IMG/VR virus record: IMGVR_UViG_2671180755_000025
DNA length: 12,776 nt
Strand: one strand, 5' to 3'
Source of the DNA: a virus
Lineage: Duplodnaviria > Heunggongvirae > Uroviricota > Caudoviricetes
The position numbers were made by a program. Of this stretch, positions 1-3,000 are shown piece after piece. The number at the start of each line of letters is the position of its first letter. Position 1 is the stretch's first letter.

Positions 1-3000
1 CTATGCTGTTTTGATATCTACGATAATCCAGTCTTTACCACGATCATCATTGTATCGGTCGGTCATTTTTCTGGATTTATGACCTAACAACTTTTGCGTA
101 TCCAGACCCTGTTCCCGATATAACCGTTCTGACAGAGATCGCTGCTCATGAAATGTGGGCGCAGTTCCTTGCTCCCATTTTATGCCACATTTTTCCCTGG
201 CCTTTTTAAAAGCCGTTGTAAGAGTATTTGCAGACACCTGGTCTCCTCTGTTTGCTTGAGAGGTAGTGTGACGGTAATGGACCAGATATTTACTAACAAC
301 AGCATCCCTGCACTGAGATATAACTTCACGAAGGGTAATATTCAGAGCATCGCATTTCAGGTTAAGCGGAATAGCAAGTTTTGAACCGGTTTTTTCCTGA
401 GTAATGTGCAACATGTCGTCCCAGATATCAGAGAATTTCAAATTGCAGATATCGCTTAAACGTTGTCCAGTGACAAGAGCAAGTAGCATCCCGCATTTTA
501 AATAGGGCTGCCGTCTGCTTACGCTGTCAAATATTGCCTGCCATTCGGGCAGTGATAATCTTTGACGGTTTACTCGATTTCGCGGTTGTTTTGTTGCCTG
601 CGCTGGGTTAAATCCTGGCGGAACATGTCCTGCGTGTTGTGCTTCTTTGAAGACGTCGATCAACACCATTCTCACGACTTGCGCCATCCTGTTATGACCT
701 TCAGCCTTTACAGCATCAATTATTTCGGCAATATCAAGTGCGGTAATATCCTTGAGGTGTTGCATTCCACAATGCTCACGGAAAAGACGGATGGGTTTGC
801 CTTTTTGCCGATAGGAGTTGGGTCTTAGTTCATTATGTTGCAGCCTGTCCTCCTGGATAGAATTATATTTATCAAGCCATTCTGTCACCGTAATGTCTGA
901 GCGCCTGCCTTTCATTCTTTCCAGACGCTCATTGACGCTTAATATTTGTCGGGTACGTTGTTCAGCAATAATGGTATTTGCTTCAGTAGCAACTTGTTTT
1001 GCTTCATTCTCATCAGTTCCTAAGCTATGAAAACGACCGGATAGTGGATGTTTGTATTGCCAATATACCTTTCCGGTTCGCTTATCTAATTTGCAATATA
1101 AATTGGGTATAGAGATTTTGTGAGATCGGGGGCTAGCAGCCATCAGCGATTATCCGTTGGAGTTTTGGGTTTGCGTTTATTGGGAGTTGCGGTTCTGCAA
1201 GCGTTCCTACAAAACGGGAATTTCGGTCAATCATCCAGTAGCGACCAACTTTTATAGCGGGTGGGGCCATCATTTTCCCTTGCGCGTATTTTTTCAGAAC
1301 TCGCTCACTTGGTGCTAAGTCCCCAAATTCTTCTTTAGCCCAGTCCCGTAAAGTGATTAGTCGAGACATTTGTCCTCCTCTTAGCTGCTGAGGGAGTTTG
1401 TGACCGATATATCTGACATGATATTAAGCTCATGGCAGGTACATCTCTTGACTGGTCATAGAGATAAATTTAATGCTGAGAAATGCAGTATTGAATTTAT
1501 CAATTTTTCACCAGCTTCTGGTCTTTCTGGCTGTCATGCGCAAAACATATGGCTTTAATAAAAAACTGGATTGGGTTAGCAACGAGCAACTTTCCGAATT
1601 AACCGGGATATTGCCGCACAAGTGTTCTGCTGCAAAAAGTGTTCTGGTAAAGCGTGGGATTTTTATTCAGAGCGGGCGGAATACCGGCATTAATAATGTG
1701 GTCAGTGAATGGTCAACATTACCCGAATCAGGTAAGAAAAATAAAGTTTACCTGAAAGAGGTAAATTTACCTGAATCAGGTAAAAAAAGTTTACCCAAAT
1801 CAGGTAAAGGCGTTTACCCGAATCAGGTAAACACAAAAGACAAACTAACAAAAGACAATATAAAACCTTTTTCGTCCGAGAATTCTGGCGAATCCTCTGA
1901 CCAACCAGAAAACGATCTTCCTGTGGTGAAACCGGATGCTGCAATTCAGAGCGGCAGCAAGTGGGGGACAGCAGAAGACCTGACCGCCGCAGAGTGGATG
2001 TTTGACATGGTGAAGACCATCGCGCCATCAGCCAGAAAACCGAATTTTGCAGGGTGGGCTAACGATATCCGCCTGATGCGTGAACGTGACGGACGTAACC
2101 ACCGCGACATGTGCGTGCTGTTCCGCTGGGCATGCCAGGACAACTTCTGGTCCGGTAACGTGCTAAGTCCGGCCAAACTCCGCGACAAGTGGACCCAGCT
2201 CGAAATCAACCGTAACAAGCAACAGGCAGGCATGATAGCCAGCAAACCAAAACTCGACCTGACAAACACTGACTGGATTTACGGGGTGGATTTATGAAAA
2301 ACATCGCCGCACAGATGGTTAACTTTGACCGTGAGCAGATGCGTCGGATCGCCAACAACATGCCGGAACAGTACGACGAAAAGCCGCAGGTACAGCAGGT
2401 AGCGCAGATCATCAACGGTGTGTTCAGCCAGTTACTGGCAACTTTCCCGGCGAGTCTGGCTAACCGTGACCAGAACGAACTGAACGAAATCCGCCGCCAG
2501 TGGGTTCTGGCTTTCCGGGAAAACGGGATCACCACAATGGAACAGGTTAACGCAGGAATGCGCGTAGCCCGTCGGCAGAATCGACCATTTCTGCCATCAC
2601 CCGGGCAGTTTGTTGCATGGTGCCGGGAAGAAGCATCCGTTATCGCCGGACTGCCAAACGTCAGCGAGCTGGTTGATATGGTTTACGAGTATTGCCGGAA
2701 GCGTGGCCTGTATCCGGATGCAGAGTCTTATCCGTGGAAATCGAACGCGCATTACTGGTTGGTTACCAACTTGTACCAGAACATGCGGGCAATGCGCTGA
2801 CTGACGCGGAATTACGGCGCAAGGCTGCCGATGAACTGACCTGTATGACAGCGCGAATTAACCGTGGTGAGACGATACCTGAACCAGTAAAACAACTTCC
2901 TGTTATGGGCGGTAGACCTCTAAATCGTGCACAGGCTCTGGCGAAGATCGCAGAAATTAAAGCTAAGTTCGGACTGAAAGGAGCAAGTGTATGACGGGCA

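What the first reader, a model, noticed from the sequence alone, without database searches (positions are those of the whole stretch)
1370..1480. int-xis abuts the replication gene directly: the whole immunity and early region is missing
In lambdoid phages the recombination, cIII, N, cI, cro and cII genes lie between xis and O. Here only ~100 bp separate the xis start (1369) from the O-like ORF (1473). The O-like N-terminus is also shorter than lambda O by roughly 25-35 residues, bounded by an in-frame stop at 1449-1451. The element therefore has no repressor or early antiterminator of its own, so its late and cargo genes cannot be under normal prophage control. The junction probably marks an old deletion.
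Basis: partly seen in the sequence, partly recalled or inferred. Interest (0 to 1): 0.45.

Follow-up and report, generated by a model that had tools for sequence, protein, structure and literature searches.

The report
Deletion scar in defective prophage Sp8
This is the known defective lambda-like prophage Sp8 of E. coli O157:H7, in which a roughly 7.1-kb deletion removed the immunity and early genes and the front of replication gene O; it is ordinary and already documented.

Summary
The window is prophage Sp8, which sits next to icd in E. coli O157:H7. It is 100% identical to strain 146N4 over bases 1-4000 and differs from Sakai at three places.

The breakpoint is not in the 103-bp spacer. 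It lies at 1509|1510, inside the "O" ORF. Bases 1-1509 match the int-xis arm of phage-21-type phages at 99%. Bases 1509 onward match the interior of their O gene at 96-100%. Intact phages such as 4A7 carry both arms about 7.1 kb apart, with exo-bet-gam-kil-cI-cro-cII between them.

The ATG at 1473 and 12 codons are fortuitous spacer sequence. 47 native O codons are lost, including 27 of 95 positions of the Pfam O domain. The intact allele is 309 aa (annotated as 339), so O is a chimeric pseudogene. RefSeq already marks it "missing N-terminus" from base 1509.

The junction is in 295 of 5,426 complete E. coli genomes and in none of 50,697 phage records. Asadulghani 2009 reported that Sp8 lacks CI and Cro and does not excise, replicate or get packaged. 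The verdict is already known and of low interest. The one small correction is that O is not intact, contrary to that paper.

The parts
1..1143 (-). Integrase of the phage 21 type, which integrates at icd
   Evidence: Pfam Arm-DNA-bind_1 plus Phage_integrase. 99% identical to the int of phage 21 and phage 4A7. It lies next to icd in Sakai and in strain 146N4.
1133..1369 (-). Excisionase (xis), 78 aa
   Evidence: Pfam Exc. Annotated as excisionase in Sakai, 146N4 and 4A7.
1370..1509 (.). Native spacer upstream of xis. In intact phages it lies between xis and a DUF4222 gene. It is the end of the left arm of the deletion.
   Evidence: Collinear with 4A7 L002:1648-1787 within the 99.1% alignment of window 1-1509. 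In 4A7 the stop codon of the DUF4222 gene begins at the breakpoint.
1463..1501 (+). Hairpin with a 16-bp stem followed by a T-run. It encloses the fortuitous ATG at 1473.
   Evidence: Terminator-like hit. RNA fold -22.9 kcal/mol, z = -2.76. It is part of the native left arm.
1473..1508 (+). Twelve fortuitous codons (MLRNAVLNLSIF) read from spacer DNA. This is not O sequence.
   Evidence: tblastn homology to O starts at residue 13. The DNA here aligns to the xis-side arm.
1509..1510 (.). Deletion breakpoint, with one shared base (the C at 1509)
   Evidence: Both arms end or start at 1509 in BLAST and in the base-by-base alignment. PGAP starts its 'missing N-terminus' pseudogene at this base.
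1510..2297 (+). Truncated O (O'), native residues 48-309
   Evidence: 96-100% identical to the O gene of intact phages. Only Pfam Phage_rep_O positions 28-95 of 95 are present. The C-terminal half is nearly identical to lambda O.
1719..1835 (.). Replication origin: five palindromic iterons (TTACCYGAATCAGGTAA), intact
   Evidence: Repeat family D1.
1833..1862 (.). A-rich stretch just after the iterons
   Evidence: Repeat family D3 and the sequence itself. Its role as the origin unwinding region is inferred by analogy with lambda ori.
2294..2994 (+). Replication gene P, frameshifted in this window by a 1-bp deletion at 2791
   Evidence: Two ORFs (2294-2800 and 2692-2994) both hit Pfam Phage_lambda_P. 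Indel located. PGAP marks the gene 'frameshifted' in 146N4.
2991..3293 (+). ren
   Evidence: Annotated as Ren in Sakai, 146N4 and 4A7. No Pfam hit.
3361..3693 (+). emrE (SMR efflux pump), a cargo gene also present in intact relatives
   Evidence: Pfam Multi_Drug_Res. The same position in 4A7 is annotated QacE.

Best explanation
The locus is the deletion scar of prophage Sp8 of E. coli O157:H7. A phage of the 4A7 type was the ancestor: phage-21 integrase module, then DUF4222 ... exo-bet-gam-kil ... cI-cro-cII, then O-P-ren-emrE-recombinase. It lost about 7.1 kb by illegitimate recombination with only one base of microhomology. The left end of the deletion is at the stop codon of the first gene upstream of xis. 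The right end is after codon 47 of O. The join happens to be in frame with an ATG in the spacer. That creates a 274-codon ORF of 12 foreign plus 262 native codons, which older annotation called a replication protein.

Shown here: the breakpoint, the content of the lost segment, the loss of Pfam positions 1-27 of the O domain, intact origin iterons, and fixation of the junction in the O157:H7 lineage.

Inferred from lambda biology:
- With the immunity region gone, the early promoters that lie in it in lambda (pL, pR), cII and any N-type antiterminator are gone too. Int and xis then have no early transcription.
- The origin has neither a complete initiator nor the rightward transcription that activates it.
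- Q and the late genes have no programmed input.
- The prophage is therefore locked in place. This agrees with published experiments showing no circularisation, replication or packaging.
For: - Identity with Sp8: window 1-4000 is 100% identical to O157:H7 genomes, including Sakai, where the region is annotated as prophage Sp8.
- Two-arm structure: window 1100-1509 matches int-xis-spacer of phage-21-type phages at 99.3-99.5%. Window 1509-1760 matches their O gene at 96-100%. No phage record covers both arms contiguously.
- Base-level junction at 1509|1510.
- Intact phage 4A7 has both arms in the same order and orientation, 7,086 bp apart. Between them lie DUF4222, a DksA-like gene, exo, RecT, gam, kil, cI, cro, cII and the start of O. 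Subtracting the hit coordinates gives 7,086 bp for 1W, 3W and Lambda_4C10, 7,124 bp for PhiR47_2 and 7,265 bp for Perceval.
- cI-cro-cII lie immediately upstream of O in three further intact phages.
- Pfam coverage is 28-95 of 95 in the window ORF against 1-95 in intact O.
- The native start is MANTAE..., preceded by a GGAGG ribosome-binding site. It matches the start of the Klebsiella homologue and of lambda O.
- PGAP annotates the gene as 'incomplete; missing N-terminus' from window 1509.
- The junction is in 295 of 5,426 complete genomes, at 99% identity or more in 294.
- Asadulghani et al. 2009 (PMC2669165): Sp8 lacks CI, Cro and general recombination functions, and shows no circularisation, replication or packaging.
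Against: - No direct ancestor is known, so the exact deleted length is model-dependent (7.09-7.27 kb).
- The same paper judged O and P 'apparently functional'.
- Loss of function of O' is inferred from domain truncation, not measured.
- The lack of replication in the experiments could be due solely to the missing early promoters.
- The promoter scan is a crude consensus search, so transcription across the junction cannot be excluded.
Confidence: 0.95

Rival explanations
1. The join arose by illegitimate recombination between two different resident prophages, one with a phage-21-type int module at icd and one DLP12-like, rather than by an internal deletion of a single prophage.
For: O157:H7 carries many similar lambdoid prophages. 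The right arm and downstream genes resemble DLP12 of K-12, including ompT at the right end.
Against: At least six intact phages carry both arms on one genome, in the same order and orientation, about 7.1 kb apart. A single internal deletion is therefore sufficient. An exchange between prophages would leave a reciprocal junction or a chromosomal rearrangement, and neither was looked for.
Confidence: 0.05
2. The 274-aa ORF is a natural short O allele, and the arrangement is a normal mosaic module boundary with no loss of function.
For: The ORF is open and in frame. It keeps the iterons and the C-terminal domain. It was annotated as a replication protein in Sakai and judged apparently functional in the literature.
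Against: Homology to O starts only at residue 13. The first 12 codons are spacer DNA of the xis arm. Every intact relative examined extends at least 47 codons further upstream. The Pfam domain is cut at position 28. No record in 50,697 phage genomes has this junction. Sp8 does not replicate on induction.
Confidence: 0.03
3. The junction is an assembly or sequencing artefact.
For: The window does contain data artefacts elsewhere: a run of N at 11419-11435, and a 1-bp indel seen only in the top-scoring record of the 25 listed.
Against: The identical junction is present in 295 complete genomes produced by many laboratories and platforms.
Confidence: 0.01

Closest known systems
Prophage Sp8 of E. 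coli O157:H7 Sakai (ECs_1609-ECs_1663), described as defective by Asadulghani et al. 2009 (PMC2669165)
   Same: It is the same element. Apart from the three differences below, the sequence is identical across the window, with the same junction and the same gene order. Published data: no CI or Cro, no recombination genes, no excision, replication or packaging.
   Different: The window has a 1-bp deletion in P at 2791, one substitution at 5819, and a run of N that replaces 252 bp near cos. The paper treats O as apparently functional. Here O is shown to be a chimeric truncated gene.
Intact temperate phages with the phage-21 int module and the same O allele (Escherichia phage 4A7 / Bievrevirus, 1W, 3W, Lambda_4C10, Perceval, PhiR47_2)
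   Same: Both arms are 96-99% identical and collinear. The same P-ren-emrE-recombinase genes lie downstream.
   Different: They keep the 7.1-7.3 kb segment with DUF4222 ... exo-bet-gam-kil ... cI-cro-cII and the first 47 codons of O.
Cryptic prophage DLP12 of E. coli K-12
   Same: It has the same kind of defect. int-xis is joined to a truncated replication gene with the immunity region gone. The same ren-emrE-ybcK-ybcN-ninE-ybcO-rusA-ylcG genes follow, and bor, ybcV, ybcW, nohD and ompT lie further along; the Q and lysis genes between them are different alleles.
   Different: It is an independent event with other endpoints: an exoD fragment joined to a P fragment (peaD), and O is entirely lost. 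It has a different integrase and attachment site (argU, not icd), IS insertions, and most morphogenesis genes deleted.
Bacteriophage lambda O initiator
   Same: The C-terminal 160 residues or so are almost identical. The origin iterons are embedded in the gene, and P follows directly. The lambda O sequence used was typed in from memory.
   Different: The ORF lacks the equivalent of lambda O residues 1-47. The iteron-binding region is a different allele with five iterons rather than four; the lambda count is from general knowledge.

Membership tests
Prophage Sp8 of E. coli O157:H7 | Near-identical, collinear sequence | tested here: met
   100% identity over 1-4000. 99.98% over 1-11418 and 99.9% over 11436-12776 against Sakai.
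Prophage Sp8 of E. coli O157:H7 | Located next to icd, with a phage-21-type integrase | tested here: met
   icd lies immediately upstream of int in Sakai and in 146N4. The window itself begins inside the prophage, so this is seen only in the matching genomes.
Prophage Sp8 of E. coli O157:H7 | The xis-O' junction | tested here: met
   The 181-bp junction probe is found in full in 295 genomes, including Sakai and EDL933.
Lambda O-type replication initiator (Pfam PF04492 Phage_rep_O) | Complete N-terminal conserved domain | tested here: not met
   Profile positions 28-95 of 95 only. Intact 4A7 O covers 1-95.
Lambda O-type replication initiator (Pfam PF04492 Phage_rep_O) | Native start codon and ribosome-binding site | tested here: not met
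   The native GGAGG-ATG (L002:8723-8734) is deleted. The ATG at 1473 lies in spacer DNA inside a hairpin.
Lambda O-type replication initiator (Pfam PF04492 Phage_rep_O) | Origin iterons inside the gene and a lambda-like C-terminal domain | tested here: met
   Five iterons at 1719-1835. The C-terminal half is nearly identical to lambda O.
Lambda O-type replication initiator (Pfam PF04492 Phage_rep_O) | Origin binding and initiation activity | not testable with these tools
   There is only indirect published evidence: Sp8 showed no replication after mitomycin C.
Inducible lambdoid prophage | cI-cro immunity region | tested here: not met
   No such genes lie between xis and O' or elsewhere in Sp8. 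They lie just upstream of O in all four intact relatives whose annotation was read. The divergent early promoters that sit in this region in lambda would be gone with it; that is general knowledge, not tested.
Inducible lambdoid prophage | Q antiterminator, lysis and packaging genes | tested here: met
   Pfam hits to Q, holin and Rz. Endolysin, bor and terminase are annotated. The cos sequence is at 11447-11458.
DLP12-type cryptic prophage | Same deletion endpoints as DLP12 | tested here: not met
   DLP12 joins an exoD fragment to a peaD (P) fragment and sits at argU. Sp8 joins the xis spacer to O codon 48 and sits at icd.

The most novel reading that the evidence does not exclude
The chimeric O' product is made despite the hairpin and the missing promoter. 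Because it keeps part of the DNA-binding region and the P-binding C-terminus, it interferes with replication of incoming phages that use the same origin or a lambda-type P. It would then be a domesticated exclusion function rather than a dead gene.
Probability: 0.03. Interest if true: 0.4.

Novelty: already known. Interest (0 to 1): 0.08.

Why it matters
It matters little. The result explains at the base level why Sp8 is locked in the chromosome and inert even though its morphogenesis, packaging and lysis genes are complete. It corrects two small points in the record. First, the Sakai annotation of ECs_1611 as a 274-aa replication protein rests on a fortuitous start codon. Second, the published statement that O is apparently functional in Sp8 is unlikely to hold. 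It is also a clean example of a prophage being grounded by one deletion with almost no microhomology, parallel to but independent of the deletion in DLP12 of K-12.

Tried and rejected
- Rfam scan of the whole window at gathering thresholds: no RNA family.
- Sequence search of intact O against the Protein Data Bank: no solved relative, so the lost residues could not be mapped onto a structure.
- Consensus promoter scan of 1100-2400: no sigma-70-like site. Scan of 2400-8400: hits at chance level. No promoter can be proposed for O'-P-ren-emrE.
- Literature searches for the gene identifiers (ECs1611, Z1866, Z1867) and for the EDL933 name of the prophage: nothing relevant.
- A repressor elsewhere in Sp8: the only helix-turn-helix protein nearby (ECs_1664, HTH_3 plus Cupin_2) lies outside the annotated prophage boundary and has no S24 peptidase domain, so it was rejected as an immunity repressor.
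- Natural short O allele, assembly artefact and satellite-like natural architecture: rejected on the two-arm alignment and the 295-genome distribution.
- The large protein-database searches and structure prediction were not run, because the question was settled without them.

Full report
**What the window is**

Bases 1-4000 are 100% identical to many E. coli O157:H7 chromosomes. In strain Sakai the region is annotated as "prophage Sp8; lambda-like phage". Sp8 lies immediately downstream of icd. Its gene order is integrase, excisionase, "phage replication protein" (O), P, ren, emrE, a large serine recombinase, the nin-region genes, Q, lysis genes, bor, terminase, and then a complete head and tail region ending with ompT.

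The window differs from Sakai at three places:
- a 1-bp deletion at 2791;
- one substitution at 5819;
- a run of 17 N at 11419-11435 that replaces 252 bp.

Strain 146N4 shares the 1-bp deletion and matches bases 1-4000 exactly.

**Checking the observation**

- xis is the minus-strand ORF 1133-1369 (78 aa, Pfam Exc).
- The O-like ORF is 1473-2297 (274 aa, Pfam Phage_rep_O).
- 103 bp separate the two.
- TGA at 1449-1451 closes the frame upstream.
- Against lambda O (299 aa; sequence typed in from memory), the ORF is 25 aa shorter overall and 35 aa shorter at the N-terminus.

**Where the discontinuity really is**

A sensitive blastn of window 1100-1760 against 50,697 phage records splits cleanly in two.
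- Positions 1100-1509 match the int-xis region of phage 21 and about 25 relatives at 99.3-99.5%.
- Positions 1509-1760 match the O gene of other or the same phages at 96-100%.
- No phage record covers both parts contiguously.

tblastn with the N-terminal half of the ORF shows that homology to O begins only at residue 13.

Phage 4A7 (NC_049946) carries both arms. Window 1-1509 aligns to L002:279-1787 at 99.1%. Window 1509-4625 aligns to L002:8873-12001 at 96.0%. The base-by-base view shows the switch between 1509 and 1510, with a single shared C. The same split at 1509 appears in about 2,400 E. coli genomes that have one arm or the other but not the junction.

**What was lost**

In 4A7 the 7,086 bp between the arms encode:
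- a DUF4222 protein, a DksA-like zinc-finger protein and several small proteins;
- exonuclease, a RecT-like annealing protein, gam and kil;
- an ASCH-domain protein and a hypothetical protein;
- the CI-like repressor, a cro-like repressor and a CII-like activator;
- the 5' end of O.

The left breakpoint coincides with the stop codon of the DUF4222 gene, the first gene upstream of xis. Five other intact phages carry both arms: 1W, 3W, Lambda_4C10, PhiR47_2 and Perceval. Subtracting their hit coordinates gives gaps of 7,086, 7,086, 7,086, 7,124 and 7,265 bp. Three further intact phages with this O allele, or a Klebsiella version of it, have cI-cro-cII directly upstream of O.

**The O reading frame is chimeric**

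Intact O of this allele is annotated as 339 aa. The likely true start is the internal ATG at L002:8732, for three reasons:
- it is preceded by GGAGG;
- it gives MANTAEIFNF..., which matches lambda O (MTNTAKILNF);
- it matches the annotated start of the Klebsiella phage GZ7 homologue (MANTAEVINF).

That makes intact O 309 aa.

The deletion removes native residues 1-47. It joins codon 48 (CAC, His) in frame to 12 codons of spacer DNA that happen to begin with ATG at 1473. The ORF is therefore 12 foreign plus 262 native codons.

Pfam covers profile positions 1-95 in intact O but only 28-95 in the window ORF. The NCBI pipeline reached the same conclusion independently. In strain 146N4 the gene is a pseudogene, "incomplete; missing N-terminus", starting at the base that equals window 1509.

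The origin itself is intact. Five palindromic iterons lie at 1719-1835, followed by an A-rich stretch. The C-terminal half of O is nearly identical to lambda O.

**Expression**

A consensus scan finds no sigma-70-type promoter on either strand between 1100 and 2400. Further downstream the hits are at chance level.

The ATG at 1473 sits inside a hairpin with a 16-bp stem (1463-1501), which is followed by a T-run on the + strand. The predicted fold is -22.9 kcal/mol, z = -2.76. This hairpin is native to the spacer upstream of xis. Here it would hinder both read-through and translation initiation. None of this proves that the ORF is silent; RNA mapping is needed.

**Consequences**

These are inferred from established lambda biology.
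- With the immunity region gone, the early promoters that lie in it in lambda (pL, pR), cII and any early antiterminator are gone. Int and xis then have no early transcription, and the cII-dependent int promoter has no activator.
- The origin has neither a complete initiator nor the rightward transcription that activates it.
- Q has no programmed input.

This agrees with the experiments of Asadulghani et al. 2009 (PMC2669165). They list Sp8 as lacking repressor, anti-repressor and general recombination functions while keeping all morphogenesis, packaging and lysis genes. They detected no circularisation, replication or packaging of Sp8. [quoted passage not shown] For O of Sp8, the present analysis contradicts that statement.

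**No immunity region elsewhere**

The Sakai annotation of the whole 44-kb prophage shows none. Pfam scans of the unannotated ORFs found DUF892, KGG, methyltransferase, NinB and DUF1398 domains and the like. One HTH_3 plus Cupin_2 protein (ECs_1664) lies just outside the annotated right boundary. It has no S24 peptidase domain and is not a cI-type repressor.

**Distribution**

The 181-bp junction probe is complete in 295 of 5,426 complete E. coli genomes, at 99% identity or more in 294. Sixty of the 295 were listed. Every one that carries a serotype in its name is O157:H7 or O157, and the rest carry no serotype in their name. The deletion is therefore fixed in that lineage and is not an artefact. 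It is found in no phage record.

**Comparison with known elements**

This is Sp8 itself. The closest intact relatives are the 4A7-type phages. The closest analogous defect is DLP12 of K-12. There, int-xis is joined through an exo fragment to a P fragment, followed by a largely shared set of downstream genes and ompT. DLP12 has different endpoints, a different integrase and a different attachment site, so it is an independent event.

**Rivals**

- Recombination between two resident prophages cannot be strictly excluded. It is unnecessary, because single phage genomes carry both arms in the right order.
- A natural short O allele is contradicted by the foreign first 12 codons, the cut domain and the lengths of all intact relatives.
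- An assembly artefact is excluded by the 295 genomes.

**Verdict**

The feature is already documented in the literature and in RefSeq annotation, so interest is low.

Noticed in passing
window 2791 (P gene, 2294-2994): A 1-bp deletion (GGGCC to GGGC) relative to Sakai frameshifts replication gene P into two ORFs (2294-2800 and 2692-2994). Only the top hit, strain 146N4, shares it, and PGAP marks the gene 'frameshifted' there. It may be a private mutation or a sequencing error.
   Followed up: partly
window 11419-11435: A run of 17 N replaces 252 bp of Sakai sequence just upstream of cos, inside the ylcI gene of the 146N4 annotation. Coordinates beyond it are shifted by 235 bp relative to the real genome. 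It looks like masking or a gap in the data source, not biology.
   Followed up: partly
window 11447-11458: A lambda-type cohesive-end sequence (GGGCGGCGACCT) lies upstream of the small terminase gene (11636-12181), so the packaging site is retained. Its identity as the cohesive-end site was recognised from memory of lambda.
   Followed up: no
window 1463-1501: A strong AT-rich hairpin (16-bp stem) followed by a T-run on the + strand. It is native to the spacer upstream of xis in phage-21-type phages. Its role in intact phages is unknown. Here it encloses the fortuitous start codon of O'.
   Followed up: partly
window 3361-5464; L002:10726-12001: emrE and the large serine recombinase (ybcK type) occupy the same position after ren in the intact phage 4A7. 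They are regular cargo of this phage group and are not peculiar to the defective prophages DLP12 and Sp8.
   Followed up: partly
L003:21316-22269 (Sakai) and L004:20681-21634 (K-12): ompT lies at the right end of Sp8 (at icd) in O157:H7 and at the right end of DLP12 (at argU) in K-12. The protease gene seems to travel with this phage type to different chromosomal sites.
   Followed up: no
L002:8642-9661 and L005/L006:1270-2289: O of the intact E. coli phages is annotated as 339 aa, starting at an ATG that overlaps the cII stop. The internal ATG 30 codons downstream has a GGAGG site and matches the lambda and Klebsiella starts, so the annotated start is probably over-extended.
   Followed up: partly
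window 8040-8254: A promoter-like site (TTGCAA-17-TATATT) lies just after Q and is followed by two terminator-like hairpins (8124-8150 and 8238-8254). This fits the lambda late-promoter and terminator layout on which Q acts, which was recalled from general knowledge and not tested.
   Followed up: no
L003:22768-23352 (Sakai ECs_1664): An HTH_3 plus Cupin_2 regulator lies just outside the annotated right boundary of Sp8, next to an IS629 copy and a ypjA pseudogene. Its origin and function were not examined.
   Followed up: no
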